NCBI GenBank assembly: GCA_964589775.1
Contig: CAZPUN010000023.1
Location: 2,135-66,134, forward strand
Direction of reading: 5' to 3'
DNA length: 64,000 bases
Origin: an uncultured archaeon
GTDB taxonomy: Archaea; Asgardarchaeota; Thorarchaeia; Thorarchaeales; CAZPUN01
In this document: positions 3,928 to 59,778 of the stretch, piece by piece
Layout of the letters: each line of letters opens with the position of its first letter
Position numbering within the stretch: position 1 is the first letter of the stretch
Position numbers and translations under genes: made by a program
The notes under the pieces: generated by a model
What the model saw: only the letters and a program-made list of their open reading frames with translations
The model's database searches: none
What the model was told of the DNA's origin: nothing

Positions 3928-5016
3928 ATGAAACAGCAAGTCGAAGTTTATTATGGTCCTCAGCATCCTGGAACGCATCCGTTTTCAATTCTTCTCAAGC
4001 TTGATGGTGATATCATAATTGATGCAGAGCCCAAAATAGGCTATGTTCATCGTGCTATAGAAAAATTAGCCGAGTATCGCGATTTCTATCAGAACATCCC
4101 CATTATGGAACGTGCATGTTTTCTCGAAGATCTGATTCATGAACATGGATATATGATCGCTGCAGAGAAGCTTCTGGGTGTTGAAATTCCAGAGCGCGCA
4201 GAATATTTGCGTGTTATTACTGCCGAACTAAGCCGTATTATTAGTCTTTTAATGTGGTTCAGTATGTTCGGTGGTGAAACAGGTCTTAGCACGACATTCA
4301 TGTGGGGCTTTACAGACAGAGAAAAATTACTTGATATTATGACTGAAATTACAGGTGCGCGTGTTGCATTTGCATACTTCCTACCTGGTGGTGTGCGATG
4401 GGACTTTCCTGAAGGTATTGAGGATAAGCTTAGAAAATATCTTGACTATCAAGAAGAACAACTAGATGTCTATAAAGGACTATTAATGGATAATTCAATC
4501 TTTATAGACCGTACCAAGGGTGTGGGCGTTGCAGATCCAGATACGCTCATAAAGCTTGGAGCATCCGGTCCCGTTCTTCGTGCAAGTGGATTCAAATACG
4601 ATCTTCGTGTTGATGCACCCTATGGTGTATATGATCATTTCAAGATCGATACCCCTGTTCTTCATAATGGCGACTCATATGACCGTACTATGATTCGTCT
4701 TATGGATATTAAAACAAGTATTGACATTGTCCGCCAAGCGTTAGACCAATTACCTTCAGGAGATGTACGTGTTAAAGTGCGTTCCAAGAAGAAAGCTGCA
4801 CCTGGCGCAGTATATTCTCGCGTAGAATCTGCAAGAGGTATTTTGGGCTACTATATAATTTCTAATGGAACAAACAAGCCATATCGAATTAAGATTCGTG
4901 GGCCTTCGTTCTCTCATATGTATGTATTTCCACACTTAATTCGCGGTCTTCATCTGGCTGATGTTCCTATGGTATTGGGCACATTAGACGTATGCCCTGC
5001 AGATCTGGATAGGTGA
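3928..5016 (+). CDS. nuoD: NADH-quinone oxidoreductase subunit D (49 kDa), no NiFe-binding Cys pairs
   Basis: N-terminus YGPQHPGTHP, C-terminus LGTLDVCPADLDR. The RxCGxC / DPCxxC hydrogenase motifs are absent, so this is a Nuo/Fpo-type subunit, not a hydrogenase large subunit. Confidence 0.9.
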   Translation: MKQQVEVYYGPQHPGTHPFSILLKLDGDIIIDAEPKIGYVHRAIEKLAEYRDFYQNIPIMERACFLEDLIHEHGYMIAAEKLLGVEIPERAEYLRVITAELSRIISLLMWFSMFGGETGLSTTFMWGFTDREKLLDIMTEITGARVAFAYFLPGGVRWDFPEGIEDKLRKYLDYQEEQLDVYKGLLMDNSIFIDRTKGVGVADPDTLIKLGASGPVLRASGFKYDLRVDAPYGVYDHFKIDTPVLHNGDSYDRTMIRLMDIKTSIDIVRQALDQLPSGDVRVKVRSKKKAAPGAVYSRVESARGILGYYIISNGTNKPYRIKIRGPSFSHMYVFPHLIRGLHLADVPMVLGTLDVCPADLDR

Positions 5017-18417: not shown

Positions 18418-19919
<1,502 letters not shown>

Positions 19920-26093: not shown

Positions 26094-26426
26094 ATGATGG
26101 AATTAAGTATGTTACTGCAGGTAAATATTATAATACTTGCAGCACTATGTTTCATTGGGGTATTATACTTACTAGCGCGTAAAATGGCGCCTCCACCAAG
26201 AACTTCTGGTGCTGCAGTTGAGCCGTATGGCTCAGGTGAAAAAGTAAAAATTGGAAAGCTAAAGTTCAGGGCACAAATGCTGAATTTTGTATTCATGTTT
26301 ATTGTATTTGAGTCGTTGATATTATCAATTCTTGCATGGCAAGTAAATCCACTTGCTGTTAGTGTATATCTAATTGTGACCCTGTTCGCATTGCTTGCTA
26401 CAAAGCAATGTACTACAGTTTGTTAG
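26094..26426 (+). CDS. NuoA-like small membrane subunit (second complex-I-like module)
   Basis: VEPYGSGE...FIVFESLILSILAW follows the NuoA pattern (PYECG..FDxE..FLFPWA) in divergent form. Confidence 0.55.
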   Translation: MMELSMLLQVNIIILAALCFIGVLYLLARKMAPPPRTSGAAVEPYGSGEKVKIGKLKFRAQMLNFVFMFIVFESLILSILAWQVNPLAVSVYLIVTLFALLATKQCTTVC

Positions 26427-26429
26427 GAG

Positions 26430-26882
26430 TTGATATTAGTGGTTCTTGCAAAAATTGCAAAATGGGCTAGGTTAAAGTCACCTTGGGTTATCCACATGAA
26501 TAGTGGTAGCTGTAATGGGTGTGATATTGAAATAGTAGCGGCATTGACTCCTCGTTATGATCTTGAACGCTTTGGTGTCAAATTAATGGGTAGTCCTAGG
26601 CACGCAGATATTATGCTTCTTACTGGTACTATGACTGCACAGGCTAGAGAACGAGCAATTCGTGTTTATGAGCAGATGGCCGAGCCAAAGTTTGTTGTTG
26701 CAATTGGAAGTTGCGCTTTAAGTGGCGGTGTTTTTGCAGGTAGTTACAATACATTAAAAGGAGCCGATAAAGCTTTACCAATTGCTGCGTATGTGCCTGG
26801 TTGTCCACCTAAGCCTGAAGCAATTATTCAAGCCGTAGCAGCCCTATTAGAAAAGCTCGAAAAAGGTGAAAGCAATGAGTGA
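26430..26882 (+). CDS. NuoB-like / group-4 [NiFe]-hydrogenase-type small subunit
   Basis: GSCNGCDIEI ... GSC ... PGCPPKPE. The four proximal-cluster Cys ligands are arranged as in Mbh/Ech/Hyc small subunits rather than the CCxxE arrangement of NuoB. Confidence 0.8.
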   Translation: MILVVLAKIAKWARLKSPWVIHMNSGSCNGCDIEIVAALTPRYDLERFGVKLMGSPRHADIMLLTGTMTAQARERAIRVYEQMAEPKFVVAIGSCALSGGVFAGSYNTLKGADKALPIAAYVPGCPPKPEAIIQAVAALLEKLEKGESNE

Positions 26883-27354
26883 TCAAAATTTAGCAGCTGA
26901 AAATGAAATAGTATCCATGCTGAAGAAATATTTGGGTGACGACTTAAAGGACATTAATATTCAGCGTCGCCATAGAGTGTGGGCTGAGATTCCCGTTTCA
27001 AAACTAAGAGATACACTCCAATTCTTAATTGATAATCGCAACTTGTACTATTTATCCACGATAAGTGGAGTTGACATGAAAGATCATTTTGAAATGCTAT
27101 ATCATTTGTTCTTGCATGAAGATAAGATTGAGTTGACCCTTACAGTAAAATTACCCCATGATAACCCTTCAGTCCCCACGATTATTGATCTATTCCCTGG
27201 TGCTGATATGGCTGAACGTGAAGCACATGAAATGTTTGGTATTAATATTGAGGGTCGTGATGAAGAACTAAAGCATGTGGAACTTCCAGATACGTGGCCC
27301 GAAGGTCAATATCCACTCAGAAAGGATTGGAGTGGAAATAATGAGGAAGCCTGA
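26866..27354 (+). CDS. NuoC-like (30 kDa) subunit
   Basis: AEREAHEMFGINIEG...LPDTWPEGQYPLRKDW. Confidence 0.75.
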   Translation: MKAMSDQNLAAENEIVSMLKKYLGDDLKDINIQRRHRVWAEIPVSKLRDTLQFLIDNRNLYYLSTISGVDMKDHFEMLYHLFLHEDKIELTLTVKLPHDNPSVPTIIDLFPGADMAEREAHEMFGINIEGRDEELKHVELPDTWPEGQYPLRKDWSGNNEEA

Positions 27355-27364
27355 GGTGAAGTAA

Positions 27365-28417
27365 ATGGAGATTATTATGGAATCCCTTATGTTTTTCTTG
27401 CAAGTATTGATATTTCCCGGAATATTCTTCCTGACATTTGTTGCTCTATTGTGGGAATGGGTAGACCGTAAATTTTACGCTAAATTACAGAATAGAGTAG
27501 GGCCTTATTTCACAGGTAAGAAAGGGTTCCTACAGCCTCTTGCCGATTTCTTAAAATTATTGTCTAAGGAAGATCTAACTCCTGAACAGAGTAACAAGCG
27601 TGGGTTCAAAGCAGCTCCAATTGTAATCGCAATTACAATTCTATTCTTATTGATGTTTATACCCATCACTGGTGCAAAAGGAATTATTTCATTTGAAGGC
27701 GACCTTCTATTTGTTTTGTTTGGGTCTTCATTGATCATGGCTGTAATTATGCTTTCTGGATGGTTTTCATCAAGTCCTTTTGCTATTGCGGGTGGTACTC
27801 GTACCGGATTGCTTATGATTGCTTATGAATTGCCATTAATTATTTCCTTACTAACTCCTGCAGTTATCGTCGGCAGTCTAAATATATCCACAATTATCAC
27901 GTATCAACTAACTCACGGCTTACCATTTATTGCAATATTTCCAATAATGTTTGGATTTATAATTTATGTCATCGCATTAGAAGCAGAACTAGAACGAGTG
28001 CCATTCGATGTTTCACATGCTGAAACTGAAATTGTTGCAGGTTGGAAAGTAGAATATTCTGGTAAAAAACTGGCATTGCTCTCGATGGTTTCAGATCTCG
28101 AACTAGTGTTTGGCGCAGGTATTGCAACAGCTATATTCTTAGGCGGCCCCTTCTTGTTTGAATTTATTCCACTTGATTGGGCTCAGTCTATTGCTACTCT
28201 TGCGGCTACCACATACTTTGGATTACTGTATTATCCTCTAGTATTCCTGTTCAAGTCTTTCTTGATAATATTAATACTAAGCTTGTTTAGAGCTCTAATG
28301 GCTCGTCTAAGAATTGACCAAATTATAAATGCGTCATGGAAAATTTTACTTCCTCTGGCAATTTTGGTGCTATTACTAGTACATTTGCCGAGTGTATTAG
28401 CATTATGGGGGCTATAA
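27365..28417 (+). CDS. NuoH-like membrane subunit
   Basis: VGPYFTGKKGFLQPLADFLKLL and AELERVPFD motifs. It directly follows the NuoC-like gene, with no NuoD-like gene between. Confidence 0.8.
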   Translation: MEIIMESLMFFLQVLIFPGIFFLTFVALLWEWVDRKFYAKLQNRVGPYFTGKKGFLQPLADFLKLLSKEDLTPEQSNKRGFKAAPIVIAITILFLLMFIPITGAKGIISFEGDLLFVLFGSSLIMAVIMLSGWFSSSPFAIAGGTRTGLLMIAYELPLIISLLTPAVIVGSLNISTIITYQLTHGLPFIAIFPIMFGFIIYVIALEAELERVPFDVSHAETEIVAGWKVEYSGKKLALLSMVSDLELVFGAGIATAIFLGGPFLFEFIPLDWAQSIATLAATTYFGLLYYPLVFLFKSFLIILILSLFRALMARLRIDQIINASWKILLPLAILVLLLVHLPSVLALWGL

Positions 28418-28418
28418 T

Positions 28419-28787
28419 ATGTGTCCAGTTCCTGGTAAGATGATTGGTGAATTGCTAAGGCATGCTTTCAAGAAGAGCGCAACAACTTCATATCCTTTGT
28501 CAAAGGATGAAGTCAATATTCCCCAAGATTTACGTGGCAAATGGGAATTGTATTTGGACAAATGTATTGGATGTAGTCTGTGTGAGCGCGTATGTCCATC
28601 ATTTGCCATAGTCATGGTTGAATGCCGTGAGGGTGAAACTACAAAGACAGGAAAGCGTCCAATTTGCCACATTGATAAATGTGTATTTTGCGCTCAATGT
28701 GAAGAGACATGTCCAACAAAAGCAATAAAATTAACACAAAACTTTGAGCTCGCGTTATTCAATCGTGAGAATGGCGTAATTGAGTAA
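28419..28787 (+). CDS. NuoI-like 2x[4Fe-4S] ferredoxin subunit
   Basis: CIGCSLCERVCP and CVFCAQCEETCP. Confidence 0.8.
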   Translation: MCPVPGKMIGELLRHAFKKSATTSYPLSKDEVNIPQDLRGKWELYLDKCIGCSLCERVCPSFAIVMVECREGETTKTGKRPICHIDKCVFCAQCEETCPTKAIKLTQNFELALFNRENGVIE

Positions 28788-35511: not shown

Positions 35512-35560
35512 ATATCACTCATTACTAGAACTTAATAAAGCATTATGATTTATTCCTTTT

Positions 35561-36322
35561 GTGGTGGCAAGTTTGAGTACGACCGCAATAGAAACTGAAA
35601 ATCTAACTAAAATTTTTCGCAAAGGAAAGAAGAATGAGACTATTGCCATTCAAGATATTAATTTGAAGATAGCTGCGGGTCAAGTCTTTGGTCTATTAGG
35701 TCCTAATGGGGCAGGGAAAACCACATTAATTCGAGTCTTAACTGGATTATTGAAACCAACATCGGGTAGTGCAAAAGTTTTGGGTTATGACATCTTATAT
35801 GAAATTGAAAAAATTCGGCCTCGAATTGCATTACTGCCCCAAGAATCTGGAGTATACGAATATCTTACTGCACGTGAGAATTTAATTTATTTTGGTGGTC
35901 TTTATGGAATACCTACTGACGTACTTGAAGAAAGAGCTGATAAATTATTAAAGCAAGTAGGTTTAGAGGATCGGGCTGATGATATTACAAAATCATTTTC
36001 TGGAGGCATGAAGCGAAAAGTATTAGTGGCTCGTGCATTAATTACAGATCCTGATATTATTTTTCTTGATGAGCCCACGACTGGTATAGACACCATTGGT
36101 GCTAAGACAATTCGAGAATTATTAAAAGAACTTAGTGCAAATCATAATCGTACTATAATTTTGACAACTCATGATCTACATGAAGTTTCTGAATTATGTC
36201 GTGAAGTGGCAATTTTGAATAAAGGACGTATTGTTGGAATTGGGACACCTGATGACCTGGAAGAGCAATTTAAAGCTAAAAATCTAGAGGAAGTTTTTGT
36301 ATCTCTTGTGAGAGGTGAATGA
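35561..36322 (+). CDS. ABC transporter ATP-binding protein (ABC-2 type)
   Basis: Walker A GPNGAGKTT, signature FSGGMKRK, Walker B IIFLDEPTTG. Confidence 0.85.
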   Translation: MVASLSTTAIETENLTKIFRKGKKNETIAIQDINLKIAAGQVFGLLGPNGAGKTTLIRVLTGLLKPTSGSAKVLGYDILYEIEKIRPRIALLPQESGVYEYLTARENLIYFGGLYGIPTDVLEERADKLLKQVGLEDRADDITKSFSGGMKRKVLVARALITDPDIIFLDEPTTGIDTIGAKTIRELLKELSANHNRTIILTTHDLHEVSELCREVAILNKGRIVGIGTPDDLEEQFKAKNLEEVFVSLVRGE

Positions 36323-45803: not shown

Positions 45804-46793
45804 TTGCAGTATGAGGTGCGTTCCGTGACTGATGATGAAATTAAAATTGCATCTGACTTGGCTCAAGAATATGGATATAAAAAATATATGATTGCACGTT
45901 ATCTGAAGCTCTGGGGTATTTCTGAAACCAAGCAATTATTAGAATCAAATGAACGGCAGGTCACACCGACTATTCGCTATAACTCTTTGCGTATTGACCG
46001 CGAAACATTTGAAGCCCAACTTGAGAAAAGAAATATAGATCTAGAACAAATTGATTGGCTTCCTGACGCCTATTTTGTAAAAGAATCGCAAGTACCAATA
46101 GGTGCTACAATAGAGCATCTTCTTGGCTGGTATTATATTCAAGCGATTCCATCTATTGTTGCAGCTTATGTGCTTAATCCTTCTGAGAATGATATTGTGT
46201 TTGATATTGCGGCAGCACCGGGTGGAAAGACTACATATCTTGCACAGCTTATGAATAACTCCGGTTTAATTGTTGCAATGGATCCAGACCGATTGAGGCT
46301 ACGTGCCCTTAAAAGTAATATATCGCGATGTGGTGTTCGTAATACAATCGTAATGCGATTTGACGGTAAAAATCTTAATAGGCTGCCCTTTGTTCCAGAT
46401 AAGATTTTACTTGATGCACCTTGTACTGGGGAAGGACTGATTGTAAAAGATCCTAGTAGAAAGACAAGTAAAACACAAGCGGATATAATGTATTGTTCAA
46501 CACTACAAAAGGATCTTCTATCTGTTGCGCTCAAGGTATTAAAGCCGGGTGGTGAACTTGTATATTCTACATGTTCCATAGGTCCAGAAGAAAATGAGAT
46601 GGTTATTGATTTTGTGTTACAATCATTTCCCGAAGTTTCAATTATTCCAATGAGCATTAAGGTTGGTGAACCCGGTATTGTTGAGCCATTTGGTGTAAAG
46701 TTACGTGCCGACCTGATCAATGCACGTAGATTTTATCCACACAAGCATGGTACTGAAGGTTTCTTTATAATTAAGTTAAAAAAAGGTGAATAA
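45804..46793 (+). CDS. NOL1/NOP2/Sun family RNA (cytosine-C5)-methyltransferase
   Basis: DIAAAPGGKT SAM motif; DAPCTGEG and TCS catalytic Cys motifs. Confidence 0.85.
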   Translation: MQYEVRSVTDDEIKIASDLAQEYGYKKYMIARYLKLWGISETKQLLESNERQVTPTIRYNSLRIDRETFEAQLEKRNIDLEQIDWLPDAYFVKESQVPIGATIEHLLGWYYIQAIPSIVAAYVLNPSENDIVFDIAAAPGGKTTYLAQLMNNSGLIVAMDPDRLRLRALKSNISRCGVRNTIVMRFDGKNLNRLPFVPDKILLDAPCTGEGLIVKDPSRKTSKTQADIMYCSTLQKDLLSVALKVLKPGGELVYSTCSIGPEENEMVIDFVLQSFPEVSIIPMSIKVGEPGIVEPFGVKLRADLINARRFYPHKHGTEGFFIIKLKKGE

Positions 46794-47349
46794 TATGAGT
46801 GATTTTTACAAAGCATCGAATTCATTTGTGAAACGGGTACGAGCACGATCTGCCGATTGGTTTGGGCGTGATTACTTTGGGGAAATATTTCAAGATACTG
46901 TTTTTGTGATCAAGGAACGCAAGAAATCTTTAAGCTTATATGCTATTTCTTCTTTATTATGGGAAAAATTACAAGATCTATTGAATGTACAAGGACTAAA
47001 GATTGAATCTGTGGGTGTTTGGGTTGGTGAAGTTAAAGAGGAGAACTTTAATCCAAGTCTTGAATTGATGCAGCTCATTGCTCCACATATTCGTGGAAGA
47101 ACAATGTATTTGACAGAACGTGGTTCTCAAATATTTGTTTATGGGCACAATGTTCTTGCGCAATCAGTTAAAAAAGTCACTCGTGATGTCTCTAAAAACG
47201 ATATTGTTTTAGTGAGATCATTTGAAGGGTTACCTATCGGTATGGCTAAGATTTTGGAAAATCCAAAGAAAATTAGAAAAATGAATGACGATGAAGTTTT
47301 TGCGAAGAATCTTCTCGATGTTGGATGGTATATTAGGAGTGGTGGGTAG
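46786..47349 (+). CDS. Nip7-like PUA-domain protein
   Basis: C-terminal PUA-like NDIVLVRSFEGLPIGMAKI...LLDVGWYIR. Overlaps the Nop2/Sun gene by 8 nt. Confidence 0.55.
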   Translation: MNNMSDFYKASNSFVKRVRARSADWFGRDYFGEIFQDTVFVIKERKKSLSLYAISSLLWEKLQDLLNVQGLKIESVGVWVGEVKEENFNPSLELMQLIAPHIRGRTMYLTERGSQIFVYGHNVLAQSVKKVTRDVSKNDIVLVRSFEGLPIGMAKILENPKKIRKMNDDEVFAKNLLDVGWYIRSGG

Positions 47350-47367
47350 TGCCACTCCATGAATGAA

Positions 47368-48105
47368 CTAAACGTACATGTTTGAAGGTCTTTCGCCACC
47401 ATCATAATGACGTTTCATCTTTTCGATTTTTTCGATTTCTTTTGATTCATCCAATAGCTGAGTAACGTCTACATTCATGTCAAACATTTCATTTAATTTT
47501 TCAAGTGTTGTAGCTGCCGCCCGTGGATCTGGGCGTCCTCTTTGTGCATATGATAATAATCCGATAGCAGACATATTTCGAATTTCTAAATGTGCGAGTA
47601 GAAGTGCTAGAGGACCTGCAACAAAGAGTCCTTCTTCCAATAATTGTATGTTCCATTTCTCTAATTTGTCTTTAGCGGCGCTTGTTGGTATTCCTCTCAT
47701 AGTGTCTTCTTCATTTTCTCTAAAGTTAACGTCTAGTCCTCCAATGAGAATATTTTCACGGAATCCTTTAGCATGAAGCCAATCTGCTAATTCATCTATA
47801 AAGTTCCATTGTTCGGCTTGATGTGGTTGGAATCTTGGTACCAAAAATACAAAATTTTTGTACTTAAACAGTTCAAATGGTAGACTAATATGCCCATTTT
47901 CCACAGAAACAAATAATGGCATTACATCCGATTTGATAAATCCAATTCTTTCAGCTTCGAGGGTTCGTATTAAATGTGCAACTGATAAATATCCTACTTC
48001 TCCTAATCCATGAAATCCTGTAATGAATATCGAATCAGGTTCTATATCTTTTCCTTCCTTTATTATTATTTTAAAATTGGAAGGCTTTGTACTTACAAAT
48101 GACAT
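47368..48105 (-). CDS. PAC2-family (PbaA/PbaB-like) proteasome assembly chaperone
   Basis: ITGFHGLGEVGYLSVAHLIRTL N-terminal signature of PF09754. Confidence 0.6.
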   Translation of the reverse strand: MSFVSTKPSNFKIIIKEGKDIEPDSIFITGFHGLGEVGYLSVAHLIRTLEAERIGFIKSDVMPLFVSVENGHISLPFELFKYKNFVFLVPRFQPHQAEQWNFIDELADWLHAKGFRENILIGGLDVNFRENEEDTMRGIPTSAAKDKLEKWNIQLLEEGLFVAGPLALLLAHLEIRNMSAIGLLSYAQRGRPDPRAAATTLEKLNEMFDMNVDVTQLLDESKEIEKIEKMKRHYDGGERPSNMYV

Positions 48106-48253
48106 TATATGACGCCCCAAATATATTGTATGTTATGTATCTAACACATCTATTTTTTTGTTTTGCATGATTTATTTGAATTCCTTTATTAAGAATTCTA
48201 TAACTACAACAACCGAATAGTTTTTCATTTTTCAGTTTTATGTATTTATTGAA

Positions 48254-49342
48254 ATGATATGGCGAAAAGATTATATTTGGTCAAATGAGGACCTTAAGAA
48301 TCGATTGAAGCGATATTATGGGCTCATAAATGGACTATACTATGCAAAATACCTAATTGCAAAAACAATCCCTGCTGAAATTTCTTTAGATTCTCCATTA
48401 GATTCTCTATGGGCTGAACATGATAGATTGTCTGCAATTTTTCAAAAGGAATTTGATATGTTTGATAACAAAAATAAGCGTAGTCTTCATTTTGTTTCCC
48501 CTTCTTATCTAGATTTAAAAATTGAAATTGCAAATAGATCCTTGGAAAGTTGTGAATTTTGTGAGCATCGTTGTAAAGTAAATAGATTCCAAACAGATCA
48601 TGGTGTATGCCGTCTTAATTCAAAGTCCCGTGTATCATCTGCTTTTTTGCATCCAGGCGAGGAAGATCCATTAGTACCAAGTGGTACAATTTTCTTTTCA
48701 TCTTGTATGTTCAAATGTGTATTTTGCCAAAATTTCGATATCTCAACAAATCCGCACTCTGGACATATTGTTTCCCCAAAAGAACTTGCGAAACTTGCAA
48801 ATTCATTATCAAAAGAAGGTGCTCTTAATATTAATTATGTCGGTGGTGATCCAATTCCTAATACCCACACGATTTTAACCTCTTTAAAATACCAAACAGA
48901 AAATATTACACAACTTTGGAATTCTAACTTGTACTGTACTGAAAACACTATGAAGCTTCTTTTTGATGTCATTGACCTTTGGCTTCCAGATTTCAAGTAT
49001 GGTAATAATGAGTGTGGCTTGAAATATTCTCGGATACCTCGATATTATGATGTAATTTCCCGAAATTTGAAAATGATTGCTGAACATGGTGATGAGATAA
49101 TTATTCGACATCTTGTATTGCCAAATCATATACATTGTTGTACATTTCCTATATTAGAGTTCATTCATGATAATTTACCTAATGCATTAGTTAATATTAT
49201 GGGGCAATACCGCCCCGAATATTTAGTACGTTCTCAGCCTTCGCGTTTTCCTGAAATTGCTCGACGACCTACAAGAGATGAAATGCATTCTGCATTTGAG
49301 TATGCAGATCAACTTGGAATCGTTTGGCGACCTGTGTCTTGA
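48254..49342 (+). CDS. radical SAM protein, PflX-like (COG1313)
   Basis: SCMFKCVFCQN (CxxxCxxC), NYVGGDP glycine-rich SAM site, and an N-terminal extra Cys cluster CEFCEHRC. Confidence 0.7.
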   Translation: MIWRKDYIWSNEDLKNRLKRYYGLINGLYYAKYLIAKTIPAEISLDSPLDSLWAEHDRLSAIFQKEFDMFDNKNKRSLHFVSPSYLDLKIEIANRSLESCEFCEHRCKVNRFQTDHGVCRLNSKSRVSSAFLHPGEEDPLVPSGTIFFSSCMFKCVFCQNFDISTNPHSGHIVSPKELAKLANSLSKEGALNINYVGGDPIPNTHTILTSLKYQTENITQLWNSNLYCTENTMKLLFDVIDLWLPDFKYGNNECGLKYSRIPRYYDVISRNLKMIAEHGDEIIIRHLVLPNHIHCCTFPILEFIHDNLPNALVNIMGQYRPEYLVRSQPSRFPEIARRPTRDEMHSAFEYADQLGIVWRPVS

Positions 49343-49392
49343 TGCAAAATCTTTAATTATAACTATCTGAATTCTATAAATAGGTGACTAAT

Positions 49393-49617
49393 TTGTGCTT
49401 AGCAGTACCTGGTGAAGTTGTGTCTATTGACGGAGATCGTGCCGAAGTAGACTTCGGTGGTGTTAAAAAAACAGTGATTGTAAGTCTAATTGATGACTTA
49501 AAGGTTGGAGATTATGTGATTGTCCATACTGGTTATGCTATTGAAAAGTTGCGAAAGGAAGAAGCGTTAAAAACTTTAAAACTATGGGACGCTATTGATG
49601 AAATAGTAAATCAATAG
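49393..49617 (+). CDS. hypC: [NiFe]-hydrogenase maturation chaperone HypC/HybG-like
   Basis: TTG start after aggtga RBS gives MCLAVPGEVVSIDGDRAEVDFGGVKKTVIVSLIDDLKVGDYVIVHTGYAIEKL. This is the invariant MC N-terminus and OB-fold core of HypC. Confidence 0.75.
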   Translation: MCLAVPGEVVSIDGDRAEVDFGGVKKTVIVSLIDDLKVGDYVIVHTGYAIEKLRKEEALKTLKLWDAIDEIVNQ

Positions 49618-49627
49618 GTGTAATTTC

Positions 49628-50494
49628 ATGAGTAATCTAATTGAAAAATACATGCAAGAATTTGGTCAAAAGATTAATACTTCCCCCGAATTGTCCGATG
49701 TTTCTCAAGATGCAATTTCAAAAAAGTTATCTGATCTTTTCGTTGTATTACTTGCAGGTGGGAAAGGCGAACGTATTCGTAGCGTAACACATAATGAAGA
49801 TATTAATAAAGTTATGATACGCCCATTGGAAAAAGAAAGTCTAATTGAATTGGCAATTAAAATGTATGCAAATGTGGGTGTAAGGAATTTTGTTGTTCTA
49901 ACTGGATTTCTTGCGGATAAAGTCATGGAACATCTAGGTAATGGTAGTAAATATGGAGTTTCGATTAGATATTCTCCAGACCCTGATAGATTAGTTGGTA
50001 GTGGTGGTGCAGTCTTAAATGCGATTGTGAATGGCGTTCTACCTGAGGATAAAATGATTATTATTCACAATCCTGATGATTTAATAATTCTTGATGATGG
50101 AAAATCATTTCCGGTAGAGTTAGTGCGGCATCACATCTTTGGATTATTACATGGTACATTGGCTACCGTTGTTGCTGTTCCATATACCTCGTATGCCTAT
50201 TCTGGAATGGTAATTGATAAGGGGCTAGTACGATCAATTCAGAAATATCCCAAGATATATGTTCCTGCGCACACTGGAGTTACAGCATTTGAACCACAAG
50301 CTTTACAATTATTTAAAACGTACATAGATCTTAATAAGAAGACCTCATTTGAAGATATTATTTTACCAATACTAAGTAATGAAGGAAAACTCTTTTCATA
50401 TGTCATACCTGCCGATTCGTGGATTCCCGTAAATGATTTGAAAGGTCTAAATGCAGCACGGAGACGGCTGCAGTCTATGGGGCTTCCAAAATAG
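49628..50494 (+). CDS. sugar-phosphate nucleotidyltransferase (NTP_transferase family)
   Basis: LLAGGKGERI signature (GxGxR) and Rossmann-like GT-A N-terminal domain. Confidence 0.7.
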   Translation: MSNLIEKYMQEFGQKINTSPELSDVSQDAISKKLSDLFVVLLAGGKGERIRSVTHNEDINKVMIRPLEKESLIELAIKMYANVGVRNFVVLTGFLADKVMEHLGNGSKYGVSIRYSPDPDRLVGSGGAVLNAIVNGVLPEDKMIIIHNPDDLIILDDGKSFPVELVRHHIFGLLHGTLATVVAVPYTSYAYSGMVIDKGLVRSIQKYPKIYVPAHTGVTAFEPQALQLFKTYIDLNKKTSFEDIILPILSNEGKLFSYVIPADSWIPVNDLKGLNAARRRLQSMGLPK

Positions 50495-51590
50495 ACTCAT
50501 AGACTTTTTCAATTCTATCAACTATTTTTTCCCAATCTAAATATTTCTTCACGAATTCGAGTCGTTCTCTTTTTCTATTATCTTTAGCTTGTATTTCACT
50601 TAATATTGCTCTCGCAAAATCTTCTTCATTTAATGGTGATATTCGTACAAAATCCTTGAATATAGTTCTCACTGATGGCAAGTCTGAAGAAACGATCTTC
50701 TTACCATAAGCCAAAGCCTCAATTATTACTGTGGGTAATCCCTCGGACCTAGATGGTAAAACAAAAATTTCTGCAACATTATACAAGTATTTTAACTTAT
50801 CTTGAGAAACTCTACCCAAAAAATGTATGCGATCACTATATGGCGAACTATCTGCCAGCCGTTTTATTTTTAATGCATCTTCCCCGTTTCCTACAATATA
50901 TAAATGTGCTTTATCATCACGTTCTGCTACTATATCAAACGCACGAATTAATACGTCAACACCTTTTCGAATGATTAACGCACCCACAAATAAAATATTA
51001 TGATTTTTGGGACTTATATTGTATTGTGTATTGGTTATCTCCGTTAAATTAAGAAAATCTAAATCTATCCCGTTTGGTATTTGTACTACTTTGCTTTTTT
51101 TAACTCCAAGGTTAATTAGTCGCCATTTTTCATCAGGTGTTAACGCGATGACGACTCGTGCTTTATTTAAAACATATTGTCCAATCGTATGTGTATAAAT
51201 GGTTTCTAAAAGATCTGGAATTCTCTTACCAAATCGTAATTTTCCATGTACTGTGGTGACAATAGGTGTACTTCTAATAACTGAACCTGCCAGCATGGAA
51301 ATCATTGAATGTTCGTTATGCGTATGGACTATATCTGCCCATTTTGCCATTTGTTTAATTAATGAAATAACTCCAACTATATTTTTATATATTGGGTTCC
51401 TAAAAGGTCGCATGAACACTGGAATTTTATAGATTCCCTTTTGGGTATAATCCGCCTTCGTTGGATAATCGGATGTCAAGACTAAGACTGAATGTCCCCG
51501 TTTTCTTAAACTCTCTACAAGTCGTTTTACATAGTACTCTTGACCGCCCTGATATGGTGGATAATATGGTGCTACTTGTAATATTCTCAT
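50475..51590 (-). CDS. glycosyltransferase family 4 (GT-B)
   Basis: MRILQVAPYYPPYQGGQEYYV N-terminus and E...E C-terminal GT4 motif region. Confidence 0.8.
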   Translation of the reverse strand: MRILQVAPYYPPYQGGQEYYVKRLVESLRKRGHSVLVLTSDYPTKADYTQKGIYKIPVFMRPFRNPIYKNIVGVISLIKQMAKWADIVHTHNEHSMISMLAGSVIRSTPIVTTVHGKLRFGKRIPDLLETIYTHTIGQYVLNKARVVIALTPDEKWRLINLGVKKSKVVQIPNGIDLDFLNLTEITNTQYNISPKNHNILFVGALIIRKGVDVLIRAFDIVAERDDKAHLYIVGNGEDALKIKRLADSSPYSDRIHFLGRVSQDKLKYLYNVAEIFVLPSRSEGLPTVIIEALAYGKKIVSSDLPSVRTIFKDFVRISPLNEEDFARAILSEIQAKDNRKRERLEFVKKYLDWEKIVDRIEKVYESILEAP

Positions 51591-51604
51591 TAACTCTTAC
51601 TCCT

Positions 51605-52735
51605 TTATAGTTCCATATATAATTCAATAATTTTTCTGGCGATTTGGCTCCAGCTAAATTTCAAATCCACAATGCGCCTTGATTCATTTCCTAATTCTTG
51701 GATATTCTTATTCATGATTGTTTTTATTGCTTTCTTTAGTGCAGATATATCGTTTGGTGGTATTATGATACCATTCTTATCGCATATTGCGTCTCTTATT
51801 CCTGAAATATCTGTTGCTATTATTGGTAATCCGCTTGCCATTGCTTCAAGAACCACCAATGGTAATCCTTCTCCCAGTGAGGGCAATACAAAAATTGTTG
51901 CGCGTGCGTATATTTTTGGTAGTTCTTCCCGTTCTACTGCATTTAGAAAAATAACGTTCTTTTCTATATTTAATTTTTTTGCCAAATATTTTAATTTGTT
52001 TTCTTCAGGTCCGCCACCAACGATTACTAATGGGATATTGAGCCCTTTCATACTTTGTAATAATATATGTACACCTTTTCTATAATCTAAACGTCCGACA
52101 AATAGTATATATTCATCTGGTAGGTTTAACTTGGTTTTAGATGTTTTCTTTTTTGGATTGAAAAAATTAGTATCTACTCCATTTGGGATAAATTCTATTT
52201 TATCCTTTGGAACACTATATTCTTTTACTAATTCCTTTTTTAATGAACTACTTACTACAATTGTTTTATTTGCTCGATTGACTACTGGTATGTCTAATGC
52301 TTTTGTTGATAATTCTCTAATAAGTTGGATCAATGGATTTTTATATTTGAATACGCTGGGTAACGGATTATGTAGTGTATATACCCATTTTGTCTTATTT
52401 TTTATCGAAAAGAGTCTAGCAGATAACTTTTCATGAATGTGAGTTACATCATAATCTTGAGCTAGCTGTTGTGCAATTTCTGCAGTTCTAATTGCCGCTT
52501 TTACATTGCGTATGCCCATTTTAAAATAATCTTGTTGAAATGATATTTCTGCAGTTCCTACGGGATATACTTGAATTTTTTTAATATCAAATTTTGAGGT
52601 TACATCAGTAATGTATCCTACTGTATGCCCTAGTTTTACAAATTCTCGTGCTAAGTTATATGTGTGATTCTCAATTGCGCCTCCCTTTGGAGGTGGTACT
52701 GGAATTATACCTGTATTGACAAGTAGGATCTTCAT
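51605..52735 (-). CDS. glycosyltransferase family 4
   Basis: MKILLVNTGIIPVPPPKGGAIENHTYNLA; GT-B fold. Confidence 0.8.
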   Translation of the reverse strand: MKILLVNTGIIPVPPPKGGAIENHTYNLAREFVKLGHTVGYITDVTSKFDIKKIQVYPVGTAEISFQQDYFKMGIRNVKAAIRTAEIAQQLAQDYDVTHIHEKLSARLFSIKNKTKWVYTLHNPLPSVFKYKNPLIQLIRELSTKALDIPVVNRANKTIVVSSSLKKELVKEYSVPKDKIEFIPNGVDTNFFNPKKKTSKTKLNLPDEYILFVGRLDYRKGVHILLQSMKGLNIPLVIVGGGPEENKLKYLAKKLNIEKNVIFLNAVEREELPKIYARATIFVLPSLGEGLPLVVLEAMASGLPIIATDISGIRDAICDKNGIIIPPNDISALKKAIKTIMNKNIQELGNESRRIVDLKFSWSQIARKIIELYMEL

Positions 52736-52830
52736 TATTTTTACCTCAATATATAAACATCCATATCTCAAAAATTATTATATATGTGTTTTTTTATTTG
52801 CTTATATCTATCCATTAATTGGTGAGTGCC

Positions 52831-53964
52831 ATGCGAATCCTTTATATTTCTCAGTATTATCCTCCAGCAACTCATGGTGGAGCTGTCTGTGTAAATCATA
52901 TATTACATGAACTTTCTAAATCAAATGAAATATTGCATTTTACAGCAGAACCTTCAGGTCCCATTTTTAAGAATGTAACTACGTTATTTGGGCATGATGT
53001 TCCCGCTATTTTCCAACATAATTTATCATATTTGTTGAATATCCGGAAAATTATACAATATGCCAGAAAATTTAGACCACACGTGATACTTGCGCAGCAT
53101 CAGGTAGATCATTTGGCATCTCTAACTGCAATGGGCCTAGGGAAGTTATTGAAAATCCCTGTTGTCATACGTGCTGAAGATATTGTAAATGGAGACTTAC
53201 CTTTATCGCAATTACCTATTTTTGTGTATTGTGAATTCCTTAATGATTTAACTCTGCATTTTGCGAAAAAAGCATCTAAATTCCTTGTAGCGACAAGTGA
53301 AATAGTTGATTATTTACACATAAAGCGCGGCTTTTTGAAAAGAAAGTTAGGAGTTAGTCCAAATGGTGTATCCCTTGAAATGTTCAAAAATGTGGAGAAC
53401 CCCTATGAATATGATGGTGATCCTGTTTTTGTATTAATGGGTTCAATGGCACCTGCAGATAATGTCTTACTATTAGTGAGATCTGCTCCTGCGATACTCG
53501 AAGAATATCCAAAATCAAAGTTTGTGTTTATCGGTGAAGGTCCTGAAATTGAAAAGGCACATAATTTATCGAGAGCTCTAAATGTGGAAAAGCATTTTCT
53601 CTTTCTAGGTAAAGTTCCACATGAGCATGTTCCCCGATATTTGATTTCTGCTGATATTGGAATTGGTCCATTGAGACCTACAAATGAAAACCGTATGACT
53701 GTGCCTCTTAAGATATTGGAATATATGGCTGCCAAACTTCCAGTAATAAGTGTTCAAATATCCAAGGATGTATTGCGCAATAACGATACTGGCATAGTAA
53801 TAAATACTGCGAGTGTTGAAGAATTCACAAAGAGAATCCTATATTTATTGGATAATAAAAAAATACAAGAAAATCTTAGTACCCGCGCCTATCAGAATAT
53901 TACAAAATATGATTGGAGAAATATTGTAAAAGATTTAGAAAAAGAATTAATGAATGTATCATGA
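52831..53964 (+). CDS. glycosyltransferase family 4
   Basis: MRILYISQYYPPATHGGAV N-terminus. Confidence 0.75.
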   Translation: MRILYISQYYPPATHGGAVCVNHILHELSKSNEILHFTAEPSGPIFKNVTTLFGHDVPAIFQHNLSYLLNIRKIIQYARKFRPHVILAQHQVDHLASLTAMGLGKLLKIPVVIRAEDIVNGDLPLSQLPIFVYCEFLNDLTLHFAKKASKFLVATSEIVDYLHIKRGFLKRKLGVSPNGVSLEMFKNVENPYEYDGDPVFVLMGSMAPADNVLLLVRSAPAILEEYPKSKFVFIGEGPEIEKAHNLSRALNVEKHFLFLGKVPHEHVPRYLISADIGIGPLRPTNENRMTVPLKILEYMAAKLPVISVQISKDVLRNNDTGIVINTASVEEFTKRILYLLDNKKIQENLSTRAYQNITKYDWRNIVKDLEKELMNVS

Positions 53965-54921
53965 GTCATTGTTTTCTTTTTCAGTATTCTTATTATTTGG
54001 TTCAGTTAGCCCATCGACAAAACCAACTACTGATGCAATATCTATAATTAATGAAATTCCCATTGCCATTAGTATGGGTTTTGGCTTCAGCATTTGTGGT
54101 GGCATTTTTGGTACTGTTCTTACAAGCAAGTATAATGGGAATCCCATTGCTAAGAAGAACCATGCAACTGGATCATTAAAGCCCGCAATTGCTAGTGCTA
54201 AACCACTCAAGAATACTGCTATTTGTTTCAAGTGTATGTGTAATAGGGTTCTTGCACGAGCATTTCCAACAGCATATCCGTAGAATTGTTTGTATAACTC
54301 TTTTGTATTTTTACGTACCTGCCAGAAAACAATTGCATCTGGTGCAAAGACAAATTTCATATTGGCTTTCTTTAACCTTATGTCAAATAAAGTATCTTCT
54401 CCAGTCGCTAAATATTCTGGATACCCGCCAACTTGCTCCCATGCGGATTTTTTAAATGCAATTGATCTGCTTGATGGCAAATATTCTTCCGGGTTAATTC
54501 TTTCTAATTTTGGATATGTTAGATTAGCTACAGTTTCTTGAAATAGGTTGGTTGCAGCTTCTTTATAAAATCCTGCCACAACATCAACTGTGGGGTCTTC
54601 ATAAAATGGTTTTGTTATATTTTCTAACCAGTGTGGATCTAACCAACAACCGCCATCAGTAACTGCAATGATTTCATTTTTCGCTTCTTTAATTGCAATG
54701 TTTCTACCCTGAGCTATGTTTGTTCCTTTTCTGACCAATAATTTAATGTATGGATATTTTTCTGTATATTTTTTGATTTTTTCAACTGTTCGGTCTCTTG
54801 AACCACCATCTACAATAATAACTTCATCAGGCTTTTTTGTCTGAGCTAGTATTGACTCTATTGTTTTTTCGATGGTGTCTTCTTCGTTTAATATTGTCAT
54901 CACTAGACTTACATCTGACAT
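53959..54921 (-). CDS. glycosyltransferase family 2 (GT-A) with C-terminal TM segments
   Basis: SLVMTILNEEDTIEKTIESILAQT...VIIVDGGSRD DxD-type GT2 signature. Confidence 0.8.
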   Translation of the reverse strand: MSDVSLVMTILNEEDTIEKTIESILAQTKKPDEVIIVDGGSRDRTVEKIKKYTEKYPYIKLLVRKGTNIAQGRNIAIKEAKNEIIAVTDGGCWLDPHWLENITKPFYEDPTVDVVAGFYKEAATNLFQETVANLTYPKLERINPEEYLPSSRSIAFKKSAWEQVGGYPEYLATGEDTLFDIRLKKANMKFVFAPDAIVFWQVRKNTKELYKQFYGYAVGNARARTLLHIHLKQIAVFLSGLALAIAGFNDPVAWFFLAMGFPLYLLVRTVPKMPPQMLKPKPILMAMGISLIIDIASVVGFVDGLTEPNNKNTEKENNDS

Positions 54922-55420
54922 TCTAAGGTCGCTCCTTGTTCCTTTTGATTTAAATAGAAGAAACATCTATTAACAGTGTTTATATTTTGCTTATAAATTT
55001 TCACGTTAATATATCATTTTTTATATCTTTATATCTATTTTTTAGATTTATTCGGTAAATATTTTATACTTTTGTGATGATTACAATGTTTAGTGGGCTT
55101 TTTATGTTATGTTTGTAAGATTAATTACGTGATTTTTAATTTATACTTTTTATAATAGCGCCAAAAATCATTTTTAATAAATTTTTGATTACAAAATGTA
55201 TCTTATTATTTTATTATCTGCTATTTTATTTTTTAATTTTCTTTATATTGTATATATTTATTCAATGCTTACTATCTGCATATTATTTCGTTCTAAAACT
55301 GACATTTTATTAATGAATGCGAACGCCAAAACGAAAGATTTAATGATATGAACAACAATCTTTTAACTAAAAAGAAACACAATTTGATTGTGTAATAAAA
55401 AAACACGGGGAACGCGGACT

Positions 55421-55705: not shown

Positions 55706-55990
55706 ATGAAATATAAAATTGTGTCTGCCATATTATGTATTTTGATCCTAATACTGATATTGCCAGTTATACTTAATTTTCCGCTTTTTCAATTAGGATC
55801 GCCAGTAACGACCATACCTGTAGAAAATTTTGGTCAAATTGGTCATTTACTGGGTGAGTATCTTTGGACATATCGCGCTCCAGATGTGATTGCACAAGCT
55901 TTTATTATATTTGCAGCATCATGGGGCATTTCTGCACTATTTAGAGGTTCTGAGGAGGATTCAACATGTCAATGTTCAACTTCTACTTAA
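55706..55990 (+). CDS. small membrane subunit, MbhE/MrpB-like
   Basis: gaggtga RBS then MKYKIVS...; two TM segments plus a soluble tail; position equivalent to the second NuoJ-like piece in Mbh clusters. Confidence 0.35.
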   Translation: MKYKIVSAILCILILILILPVILNFPLFQLGSPVTTIPVENFGQIGHLLGEYLWTYRAPDVIAQAFIIFAASWGISALFRGSEEDSTCQCSTST

Positions 55991-56289
55991 TTACTGCAGC
56001 TGTTTTGTACTTTCTAGGTTTCTATGGTCTAGCGAGTACAAAAAACATGATAAAAATTGTAATATCTCTGGAAGTACTCGTTATGGCTGTAAATCTGAAT
56101 TTCATAACATTTGCAGCATTTGCTAATGGTGGTGTTGTTGGACTTGTGGATCCATTTGTACAGACCTTCGTTGTGATCTCTATTTTCATCGGTGGTGCAA
56201 TAGCTGCAATAGCATTATCTCTGATTTGGAACGCTTACAAGCATTATGGCACACTAGATGTTAGAGAGTTGAGCAGATTGAAAGAATAG
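55966..56289 (+). CDS. NuoK/MrpC-like subunit
   Basis: 107 aa; three TM helices; LEVLVMAVNLNFITFAAF pattern of the NuoK/MnhC family. Confidence 0.7.
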   Translation: MSMFNFYLITAAVLYFLGFYGLASTKNMIKIVISLEVLVMAVNLNFITFAAFANGGVVGLVDPFVQTFVVISIFIGGAIAAIALSLIWNAYKHYGTLDVRELSRLKE

Positions 56290-56301
56290 GGAGGCTAGGT
56301 T

Positions 56302-58248: not shown

Positions 58249-58259
58249 GAGGTGCAGAG

Positions 58260-59774: not shown

Positions 59775-59778
59775 ATAA

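What the first reader, a model, noticed from the sequence alone, without database searches (positions are those of the whole stretch)
49393..49617. Orphan HypC-like [NiFe]-hydrogenase chaperone with no hydrogenase large subunit or other hyp genes nearby
A textbook HypC (MCLAVPGEVV..., OB-fold) is encoded with a TTG start that the ORF caller mis-starts at an upstream ATG. It lies between a PflX-like radical SAM gene and a nucleotidyltransferase, not in a hyp operon. Every NuoD-like gene in the window lacks NiFe-ligating cysteines. The one hydrogenase-like feature in the window is the small subunit of the D-less module. HypC-family proteins are chaperones of the large-subunit precursor, so their client here is unclear.
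Basis: partly seen in the sequence, partly recalled or inferred. Interest (0 to 1): 0.55.

Follow-up and report, generated by a model that had tools for sequence, protein, structure and literature searches.

The report
Stand-alone hypC gene in Asgard archaeon
This is a normal, well-conserved HypC hydrogenase-assembly chaperone gene in an Asgard archaeon; sitting apart from the other hyp genes is the usual arrangement in Asgard archaea, so it does not show that the chaperone lacks a partner enzyme.

Summary
Positions 49393-49617 (+) encode a 74-aa HypC (PF01455 97 bits; TIGR00074 84 bits against a cutoff of 48). The TTG start is real: a GGTGA ribosome-binding site lies 5 nt upstream. The miscalled upstream start is GTG, not ATG. 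Cys2, Pro6, His45 and the C-terminal helix are conserved, the model matches T. kodakarensis HypC (TM 0.90), and dN/dS is about 0.06.

No other hyp gene and no four-cysteine large subunit lies in the window or about 14 kb of flank.

The "orphan" reading is weak. The organism is an Asgard archaeon. In 58 Asgard hypC loci, hypD is never within 3 kb (0/39 testable). In other archaea it is adjacent in 21/22. The Asgard gene sits in a conserved block: radical-SAM upstream in 31/47 and sugar nucleotidyltransferase downstream in 35/39.

About 50 of 65 radical-SAM orthologues have no hypC nearby, so the adjacency looks like inherited gene order, not a functional link.

Published surveys report [NiFe] hydrogenases in 67% of Asgard genomes. 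Most likely this is an ordinary dispersed hypC whose client is encoded elsewhere. I could not read the rest of the genome, so that step is inferred.

The parts
49393..49617 (+). hypC: 74-aa HypC/HybG/HupF-family chaperone, TTG start, N-terminal Met-Cys
   Evidence: PF01455 97.4 bits and TIGR00074 83.7 bits. PDB 2Z1C E=6e-21. AF2 pLDDT 87.8 and TM 0.90 to 2Z1C. dN/dS 0.056-0.065 against L001/L004.
49383..49387 (+). GGTGA Shine-Dalgarno-like motif 5 nt upstream of the TTG start. It contains the GTG (49384) that mechanical ORF calling takes as the start.
   Evidence: Read directly from the sequence. The identical 'aggtgactaatTTG' occurs in relatives L001-L005.
48254..49342 (+). Radical SAM enzyme (PFL-activase-like, 'PflX'/COG1313 type), function unknown. 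Conserved upstream neighbour of hypC in the Thor-type Asgard lineages and in this lineage.
   Evidence: PF04055 and Fer4_12, with only weak NCBIfam and PDB hits. The CX3CX2C motif plus two further invariant Cys groups. Upstream of hypC in 31/47 Asgard loci. About 50/65 orthologues in metagenome contigs have no hypC nearby.
49628..50494 (+). Sugar-1-phosphate nucleotidyltransferase (NTP_transferase), 10 nt downstream of hypC and probably co-transcribed. First gene of a glycosylation cluster.
   Evidence: PF00483 54 bits. Within 3 kb downstream of hypC in 35/39 Asgard loci and 0/22 non-Asgard loci.
50475..54966 (.). Glycosyltransferase cluster (three GT4 genes and one GT2 gene) following the nucleotidyltransferase
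   Evidence: Pfam. Syntenic in L001/L004.
45804..48120 (.). RsmB/F-like rRNA methyltransferase, NIP7-like PUA protein and PAC2 proteasome-assembly chaperone. These housekeeping genes are also linked to hypC in Hermod/Odin-type Asgard loci.
   Evidence: Pfam. RsmB within 3 kb of hypC in 14/47 Asgard loci.
3928..5016 (+). The only large-subunit homologue in the window: a NuoD-like protein with a half-degenerate NiFe site (Cys-Glu / Cys-Asp)
   Evidence: PF00346 280 bits. Alignment with true group-4 large subunits. The C-[E/D]-C-D pattern is conserved in 11 homologue clusters.
26094..28787 (+). D-less complex-I/hydrogenase-like module (A, B, C, H, I). Its B subunit (26430-26882) is of the hydrogenase small-subunit type (GSCNGCDIE). 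No large-subunit gene lies between C and H (10-nt gap).
   Evidence: Pfam. Motifs. B is 69-72% identical to small subunits of Anaerolineae group-4 hydrogenase operons that do contain a large subunit and HycI. The same D-less order occurs in relative L095.

Best explanation
This is the canonical HypC of an Asgard archaeon. By homology with the characterised family, its N-terminal Cys (after Met removal) pairs with HypD to hold the iron on which HypE and HypF install two cyanides and an unidentified source installs CO. HypC then carries the Fe(CN)2CO unit to the apo large subunit of a [NiFe] hydrogenase.

In Asgard archaea the hyp genes are dispersed. hypC is kept as a single gene in an ancestral block of housekeeping and glycosylation genes, next to a radical SAM gene and a sugar nucleotidyltransferase gene. 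In this lineage it is probably translated from a TTG with its own ribosome-binding site and co-transcribed with the nucleotidyltransferase gene.

Its partners (hypD/E/F/A/B) and its client are inferred to lie elsewhere in the genome. The client is most likely a group 3 cytosolic hydrogenase, and/or a group 4 large subunit that would serve the D-less module.

Shown here: family membership, intact functional residues, the fold, purifying selection, and the Asgard-wide stand-alone arrangement. Inferred: that HypD and a hydrogenase exist in this particular genome.
For: Family, residues and fold:
- PF01455 and TIGR00074 score well above their cutoffs.
- Phmmer E=6e-21 over residues 1-70 against T. 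kodakarensis HypC, whose HypC-HypD and HypC-HypD-HypE complexes are solved; Foldseek alignments give 45-51% identity to the full-length 2Z1C chains.
- C2, L3, A4, P6, H45 and G47 are invariant in 39 relatives, and the C-terminal helix is conserved.
- The AF2 model is a five-strand barrel plus helix, TM 0.90 to 2Z1C.
- dN/dS is 0.056-0.065 with saturated dS.

Gene arrangement:
- hypD is within 3 kb in 0/39 Asgard loci, and no GPGCPVC ORF occurs in 831 kb of Asgard flanks. In other archaea it is within 3 kb in 21/22 loci.
- Each of the 80 species genomes contributed a single hypC locus.
- The same block is found in loci labelled Thor-, Loki-, Hod- and Hermod-archaeota.

Literature on hydrogenases in Asgard archaea:
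- [NiFe] hydrogenases occur in 67% of Asgard MAGs, across all 17 lineages (bioRxiv 10.1101/2024.07.04.601786).
- Hermodarchaeota have groups 3b, 3c and 4 (PMC8163825).
- Most Asgard members encode MvhADG-HdrABC and/or HydAD (bioRxiv 10.1101/726976).
- The complete Heimdallarchaeum genomes carry the same half-site NuoD-like cluster. They also encode a membrane-bound hydrogenase, two sulfhydrogenases and maturation factors (PMC8813620).
Against: No hypD/E/F/A/B, HycI or four-cysteine large subunit was seen in the about 78 kb of this contig that could be read. The two complex-I-like modules present either lack a large subunit or have only 2 of the 4 ligand cysteines. One third of Asgard MAGs are reported without a [NiFe] hydrogenase, so absence in this genome is possible. 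The presence of partner and client in this genome is inferred from relatives, not shown.
Confidence: 0.75

Rival explanations
1. True orphan. The genome has lost its four-cysteine [NiFe] large subunits, and hypC is retained for another client. The obvious candidate is the NuoD-like subunit with the conserved Cys-Glu/Cys-Asp half-site, possibly shared with the D-less module that has a hydrogenase-type small subunit. HypC would deliver an iron moiety to it.
For: No four-cysteine large subunit was found in about 78 kb. The half-site C-[E/D]-C-D is conserved across 11 homologue clusters at about 50% identity, so it is under selection. It keeps the first Cys of the N-terminal motif. From my own recollection of Magalon and Boeck (2000), not checked here, that is the residue HypC needs to dock on E. 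coli HycE. The D-less order is conserved in a relative. hypC is under strong purifying selection.
Against: Heimdallarchaeum has the same half-site NuoD-like cluster and also ordinary hydrogenases, so the half-site does not imply loss of clients. No precedent is known for HypC serving a two-cysteine site. Most of the genome was not seen.
Confidence: 0.1
2. Functional coupling with the upstream radical SAM enzyme. The conserved multi-cluster radical SAM protein would work with HypC in cofactor assembly, for example as the unknown anaerobic source of the CO ligand. This would be an addition to the canonical role, not a replacement.
For: The radical SAM gene is upstream of hypC on the same strand in 31/47 Asgard loci. 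The protein is very conserved (75% mean column identity) and has three invariant Cys groups. The anaerobic CO source is an acknowledged open question (PMC12134894). In [FeFe] hydrogenases, from my own knowledge, the CO and CN ligands are made by the radical SAM enzyme HydG.
Against: About 50 of 65 radical SAM orthologues in metagenome contigs have no hypC or any other hyp gene within 6 kb. Hermod/Odin-type and Borrarchaeum hypC loci lack the radical SAM gene. No non-Asgard hypCD(EF) locus has it (0/23). Unrelated genes (MazE, NYN) are often inserted between the two, and Thor-type hypC has its own promoter-like motif. The whole roughly 12-gene block is equally conserved, as expected for inherited synteny.
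Confidence: 0.06
3. HypC has been recruited to the adjacent glycosylation pathway (nucleotidyltransferase, Dol-P-Man-type glycosyltransferases), for example as an OB-fold adaptor, independently of hydrogenases.
For: hypC followed by NTP_transferase is the most persistent adjacency (35/39 Asgard loci). The gap is 10 nt here, and the two genes overlap by 4 nt in L008.
Against: Every residue specific to the iron-carrier role (Cys2, His45) is invariant, which a glycosylation adaptor would not need. In Hermod-type loci a gene on the opposite strand separates the two. No biochemical precedent is known.
Confidence: 0.03
4. Decaying or non-functional remnant of a lost hydrogenase system.
For: A TTG start and no hyp partners in view.
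Against: dN/dS is about 0.06 at about 78% nucleotide identity. The ORF is intact with a conserved ribosome-binding site in five related contigs. All family-invariant residues are present.
Confidence: 0.02

Closest known systems
HypC of Thermococcus kodakarensis (PDB 2Z1C; HypC-HypD and HypC-HypD-HypE complexes 3VYR-3VYU)
   Same: Same length (74-75 aa) and the same MCLAVPG N-terminus. Same OB-fold barrel plus C-terminal helix (TM 0.90). Phmmer E=6e-21; Foldseek alignments give 45-51% identity to the full-length 2Z1C chains. Conserved His in the VIVHTGFAI motif.
   Different: In Thermococci hypC is immediately followed by hypD, usually with hypF and hypE. Here it stands alone between a radical SAM gene and a nucleotidyltransferase gene, and it uses a TTG start.
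E. coli HypC / HybG (PDB 2OT2; NCBIfam NF007712, NF007721)
   Same: Same family and fold. The essential N-terminal Cys is present.
   Different: It scores only 39-44 bits against these equivalog models, whose cutoffs are 115-136 bits. It is therefore not an orthologue of either specialised bacterial paralogue. It is also shorter (74 aa against 82-90 aa).
Asgard archaeal HypC proteins annotated by NCBI as 'HypC/HybG/HupF family hydrogenase formation chaperone' (Thor-, Loki-, Hod-archaeota MAGs)
   Same: 60-70% identity and the same stand-alone position in the block OTCase-like, radical SAM, hypC, NTP_transferase, GT2, GT87, GT4.
   Different: This lineage has RsmB, NIP7 and PAC2 directly upstream of the radical SAM gene. 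It has GT4 genes in place of GT2 and GT87 downstream. It uses TTG where the others use ATG.
Ehr-type complexes (energy-converting hydrogenase-related complexes lacking NiFe cysteines; Marreiros et al. 2013, cited in PMC11291895)
   Same: The window's NuoD-like subunit belongs to a complex-I/group-4-hydrogenase-like cluster without a full Cys quartet, so it is not an obvious HypC client.
   Different: It retains two of the four cysteines, with conserved acidic residues at the other two positions.

Membership tests
HypC/HybG/HupF family (PF01455 / TIGR00074) | Profile score above the curated cutoff over the full length | tested here: met
   PF01455 97.4 bits (cutoff 28.5) over positions 1-65/65. 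TIGR00074 83.7 bits (cutoff 48) over positions 1-71/80.
HypC/HybG/HupF family (PF01455 / TIGR00074) | Cys as the first residue after the initiator Met (MCxxxPG motif) | tested here: met
   TTG-TGC gives M-C-L-A-V-P-G. C2 and P6 are invariant in 39 relatives. All 88 loci start at this codon.
HypC/HybG/HupF family (PF01455 / TIGR00074) | Conserved His in the beta-barrel (E. coli His51 equivalent) | tested here: met
   H45 in VIVHTGYAI is invariant and aligns with the His in T. kodakarensis HypC. The equivalence to E. coli His51 is from my own knowledge.
HypC/HybG/HupF family (PF01455 / TIGR00074) | OB-fold beta-barrel followed by a C-terminal alpha-helix | tested here: met
   In the AF2 model (pLDDT 87.8) strands span residues 5-53 and a helix spans 55-73. 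Foldseek gives TM 0.90 and rmsd 1.5 A to 2Z1C.
HypC/HybG/HupF family (PF01455 / TIGR00074) | Forms a complex with HypD and carries Fe(CN)2CO to a [NiFe] large-subunit precursor | not testable with these tools
   This needs biochemistry. It also needs the rest of the genome to show that HypD and a large subunit exist.
hyp operon member (hypCD(EF) cluster as in Thermococci, Theionarchaea, DHVE2 and bacteria) | hypD (GPGCPVC motif) adjacent to hypC | tested here: not met
   No HypD homologue is in the window. 0/39 Asgard loci have one within 3 kb, against 21/22 non-Asgard loci.
HybG / HypC bacterial equivalogs (NF007721 / NF007712) | Score above the equivalog cutoff | tested here: not met
   39.1 bits against 115 and 43.7 bits against 136.
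HupF (long, two-domain HypC relatives of uptake-hydrogenase clusters) | C-terminal extension beyond the HypC core (about 100 aa in total) | tested here: not met
   The protein is 74 aa and ends 9 residues after the profile.
[NiFe] hydrogenase large subunit (candidate client in the window: NuoD-like 3928-5016) | Two CxxC pairs (RxCGxC and DPCxxC) ligating Ni and Fe | tested here: not met
   ERAC-FLE and DVCPAD: only the first Cys of each pair is present.

The most novel reading that the evidence does not exclude
The stand-alone Asgard hypC is more than displaced; it is a functional module with its conserved neighbours. In one version, the upstream three-cluster radical SAM enzyme supplies the still-unknown anaerobic CO ligand to the HypC-bound iron. 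In the other, in genomes like this one, HypC services the conserved Cys-Glu/Cys-Asp 'half-site' of the NuoD-like subunit, a possible intermediate between hydrogenase and complex I, together with the large-subunit-less module that has a hydrogenase-type small subunit.
Probability: 0.07. Interest if true: 0.85.

Novelty: new member of a known kind. Interest (0 to 1): 0.3.

Why it matters
As posed, it matters little. A dispersed hypC is expected in archaea, and the gene is a routine orthologue of proteins already annotated in Asgard MAGs.

Two by-products are of modest value.
- hypC in Asgard archaea is consistently uncoupled from hypD and embedded in an ancestral block of radical SAM and glycosylation genes. 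Annotators should not read local absence of hyp genes as absence of hydrogenase maturation.
- The window holds a NuoD-like subunit with a conserved two-cysteine, two-carboxylate site, and a module with a hydrogenase-type small subunit but no large subunit. These bear on the much-discussed transition from hydrogenase to complex I in the archaeal relatives of eukaryotes.

If the whole genome proved to lack four-cysteine large subunits while keeping a strongly selected hypC, that would be a real puzzle worth experiments.

Tried and rejected
1. Finding the window's own genome among GTDB species representatives through hypC. The best hit was 68% identical, so the species is not represented, and that used the single genome-contig scan.

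2. Walking along the source contig. The window maps to about positions 3917-67916 of ENA ERZ27262694 k141_518116 (205 kb). Look-ups are allowed only for window proteins, so I gained only 4 kb on the left and 10 kb on the right. Neither side has hyp genes.

3. An exact look-up of the 77-aa ORF-caller version of HypC (P0001) found nothing on record.

4. I considered a HypD or large-subunit homology search to locate the same-genome copy and rejected it. Only the best 120 hits are shown and I held no query from this lineage, so the target would not surface.

5. The hypothesis that the radical SAM gene is functionally tied to hypC was tested from the radical SAM side in JGI metagenomes and was not supported.

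6. The radical SAM protein could not be assigned to any named family. NCBIfam and PDB gave only weak PFL-activase-like hits, and no paper mentions PflX together with radical SAM.

7. The idea of a pseudogene or remnant was rejected by dN/dS.

8. The sigma-70 promoter scan was not used, because the organism is an archaeon.

Full report
**The gene.** Positions 49393-49617 (+) read TTG TGC TTA GCA GTA CCT GGT and translate to MCLAVPGEVVSIDGDRAEVDFGGVKKTVIVSLIDDLKVGDYVIVHTGYAIEKLRKEEALKTLKLWDAIDEIVNQ. The mechanical ORF list starts the frame three codons earlier, at the GTG at 49384. That GTG lies inside a GGTGA Shine-Dalgarno-like motif (49383-49387), 5 nt before the TTG. The string 'aggtgactaatTTGTGC' is identical in five related contigs. 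All 88 homologous loci I collected start at the codon directly before the Cys. The TTG start is therefore well supported.

**Family membership.**
- The protein matches PF01455 end to end (97.4 bits; cutoff 28.5) and TIGR00074 (83.7 bits; cutoff 48). It falls far below the E. coli HypC and HybG equivalog cutoffs.
- Its best solved relative is T. kodakarensis HypC (2Z1C, E=6e-21). That protein's complexes with HypD and with HypD plus HypE are also solved (3VYR-3VYU).
- In an alignment of 39 relatives, C2, L3, A4, P6, F21, H45, G47 and several C-terminal helix positions are invariant.
- An AlphaFold2 model (pLDDT 87.8) has five strands and a C-terminal helix. It superposes on 2Z1C with TM 0.90.
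- Against two orthologues at about 78% nucleotide identity, dN/dS is 0.056 and 0.065.
- Every sequence-level and fold-level criterion for HypC is met, and the gene is under strong purifying selection.

**The organism and the window.**
- The window is from an Asgard archaeon. The nearest HypC hits are labelled Thor-, Loki-, Hod- and Prometh-archaeota.
- The window also carries PcrB, PAC2, NIP7, Roadblock, TFIIB and a lone archaeal 16S rRNA gene. Two Snf7 genes lie just beyond its right edge.
- It corresponds to about positions 3917-67916 of a 205-kb ENA contig. The species is not among the GTDB representatives scanned.

**What else is in reach.** Pfam annotation of essentially all ORFs of 110 aa or more, plus tblastn with HypA, HypB, HypD, HypE, HypF, HycI and large-subunit queries, found no other hyp gene. 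The 4 kb to the left and 10 kb to the right of the window hold none either.

The only large-subunit homologue is the NuoD-like gene at 3928-5016. It keeps the first Cys of each ligand pair (ERAC-FLE and DVCPAD), with Glu and Asp replacing the second.

The second module (26094-28787) has A, B, C, H and I subunits, with only 10 nt between C and H. Its B subunit carries the hydrogenase-type GSCNGCDIE motif, whereas the first module's B has the NuoB-type CIACC motif.

**Is the placement unusual?** No.
- Close relatives (82-84% identical HypC) are fully syntenic.
- Distant Asgard genomes (60-70% identical HypC), whose wider context differs, keep the same core: an OTCase-like gene, the radical SAM gene, hypC, the NTP_transferase gene, then GT2, GT87 and GT4.
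- I scanned one genome per GTDB species with a HypC alignment and took 80 loci. I clustered their neighbours and counted.
- In Asgard-type loci the nucleotidyltransferase is within 3 kb downstream in 35/39, the radical SAM gene is within 3 kb upstream in 31/47, and RsmB is within 3 kb in 14/47.
- HypD is within 3 kb in 0/39 Asgard-type loci. No ORF with the HypD GPGCPVC motif occurs anywhere in 831 kb of Asgard flanks.
- In the 28 non-Asgard loci (27 archaeal: Thermococci, Theionarchaea, DHVE2, Bathyarchaeia, Altiarchaeota and Thermoplasmata; plus one labelled Ectothiorhodospiraceae bacterium, L076), HypD is adjacent in 21/22, often followed by HypF and HypE. The other two genes are never present.
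- A second Asgard pattern (Hermod/Odin type) places hypC after the ribosomal cluster SecE-Spt5-L11-L1-L10-L12 and after NIP7 and RsmB. A DPM2-like gene on the opposite strand lies between hypC and the nucleotidyltransferase.
- The window combines both patterns: RsmB, NIP7, PAC2, radical SAM, hypC, nucleotidyltransferase.
- Each genome contributed one hypC locus. The stand-alone gene thus appears to be the hypC of these organisms, not an extra paralogue.

**Does the neighbourhood imply function?** I tested the most interesting link, radical SAM to hypC, from the other side. A radical SAM alignment (75% mean column identity; invariant Cys groups at 100/103/107/119, 151/155/158 and 228/254/295/296) was scanned against JGI metagenome contigs. 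Of 65 loci with at least 1.5 kb downstream, only 15 have hypC within 1.5 kb. All 15 are of the Thor type linked to the OTCase-like gene. About 50 orthologues at 49-55% identity have no hypC or any other hyp gene within 6 kb.

Unrelated genes (MazE, NYN) are often inserted between the two genes. Thor-type hypC genes carry their own 'attctaaag' promoter-like motif about 30 nt upstream. The whole roughly 12-gene block is conserved to the same degree. This is what inherited synteny looks like, and it argues against an obligate functional pair.

The radical SAM family itself is large (274 representative clusters at E<=1e-30) and uncharacterised.

**Is there likely to be a client?** The lineages that share this arrangement are documented hydrogenase carriers.
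- 67% of Asgard MAGs across all 17 lineages encode [NiFe] hydrogenases (bioRxiv 10.1101/2024.07.04.601786).
- Hermodarchaeota have groups 3b, 3c and 4 (PMC8163825).
- Most Asgard members encode MvhADG-HdrABC and/or HydAD (bioRxiv 10.1101/726976).
- Atabeyarchaeia and Freyarchaeia have groups 3 and 4 (PMC11291895).
- The complete Heimdallarchaeum genomes carry the same half-site NuoD-like cluster as the window (P0395/P0513). They also encode a membrane-bound hydrogenase, two sulfhydrogenases and maturation factors (PMC8813620).

The half-site NuoD-like protein therefore coexists with ordinary HypC clients in at least one complete relative.

**Verdict.** The most probable reading (about 0.75) is an ordinary, functional HypC whose partners and client are encoded elsewhere. 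The local 'orphan' state is the Asgard norm. I could not verify this for the genome itself, because the rest of the contig and bin were out of reach.

**What remains open.** About 0.1 probability goes to a real orphan that serves something other than a four-cysteine large subunit. Smaller probabilities go to functional coupling with the radical SAM enzyme or with the glycosylation genes.

Two side observations are more unusual than the finding itself.
- The C-[E/D]-C-D pattern at the four NiFe-ligand positions is conserved in 11 NuoD-like homologue clusters at about 50% identity.
- The D-less module is conserved in a 93%-identical relative. Its small subunit is about 70% identical to those of Anaerolineae group-4 hydrogenase operons, which do contain a large subunit and HycI.

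Noticed in passing
window 3928-5016 (+): The NuoD-like subunit keeps the first Cys of each NiFe-ligand pair and has acidic residues at the second positions (ERAC-FLE; DVCPADLDR). The same C-[E/D]-C-D pattern recurs in 11 of the 120 best homologue clusters. These are labelled Asgardarchaeia or Heimdallarchaeaceae, include Heimdallarchaeum aukensis, and are 47-56% identical. True group-4 large subunits show C-C-C-C and most Nuo-type sequences show V-D-W-E. This may be a conserved non-NiFe metal site or an intermediate between hydrogenase and complex I.
   Followed up: partly
window 26094-28787 (+): A complex-I/hydrogenase-like module with A, B, C, H and I but no large-subunit gene (10-nt gap between C and H) and no HycI. 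Its B subunit has the hydrogenase-type GSCNGCDIE motif. Apart from one 93%-identical orthologue, its nearest relatives are 69-72% identical small subunits from Anaerolineae/Chloroflexota group-4 hydrogenase operons of order J-K-L-M-x-B-C-LSU-H-I-HycI. This suggests horizontal transfer or strong conservation. The D-less order is conserved in relative L095.
   Followed up: partly
window 55900-61308 (+), and L001 16023-20234: A third, separate set of membrane-arm genes: two small ORFs, a NuoK-like gene and three NuoL/M/N-like antiporter subunits. It lies about 27 kb from the D-less module and could be that module's membrane arm.
   Followed up: no
L006-L008, L011-L046, L096 (downstream of hypC); L048-L086 (Hermod type): The genes after hypC form a eukaryote-like mannosylation set: sugar nucleotidyltransferase, a GT2 (DPM1-like), GT87/PMT_2 and GT4. 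In Hermod-type loci a DPM2-like gene (PF07297) is also present.
   Followed up: partly
Thor-type loci L006-L046, about 25-35 nt upstream of the hypC ATG: A conserved 'attctaaag' or 'attataaag' motif sits upstream of hypC whatever the upstream gene is. It looks like an archaeal TATA-type promoter driving a leaderless or short-leader hypC transcript. In the window lineage the homologous 'attctataaata' lies only 11-22 nt from the TTG, and an SD motif is present instead.
   Followed up: partly
P0121, P0123, P0124, P0133, P0134, P0150, P0155, P0169 and others: Several homologues of the radical SAM protein are 600-880 aa long and match the query in two separated stretches, as expected for intein-containing versions.
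   Followed up: no
window 18418-19919 (+): A complete archaeal 16S rRNA gene stands alone. No 23S or 5S gene is in the window, so the rRNA operon is unlinked.
   Followed up: no
window 34576-37488: Homologues of genes that sit directly upstream of radical SAM and hypC in Thor-type genomes lie 11-14 kb away in the window: the OTCase-like protein, an ABC ATPase and an ABC-2 permease. This shows rearrangement of an ancestral block. The OTCase-like protein matches only the Asp/Orn-binding half of the carbamoyltransferase fold, and it is next to an ArsA/Get3-type ATPase.
   Followed up: partly
window 31666-33252 (+): A second, larger radical SAM protein (528 aa), unrelated to the hypC neighbour. 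Its function was not examined.
   Followed up: no
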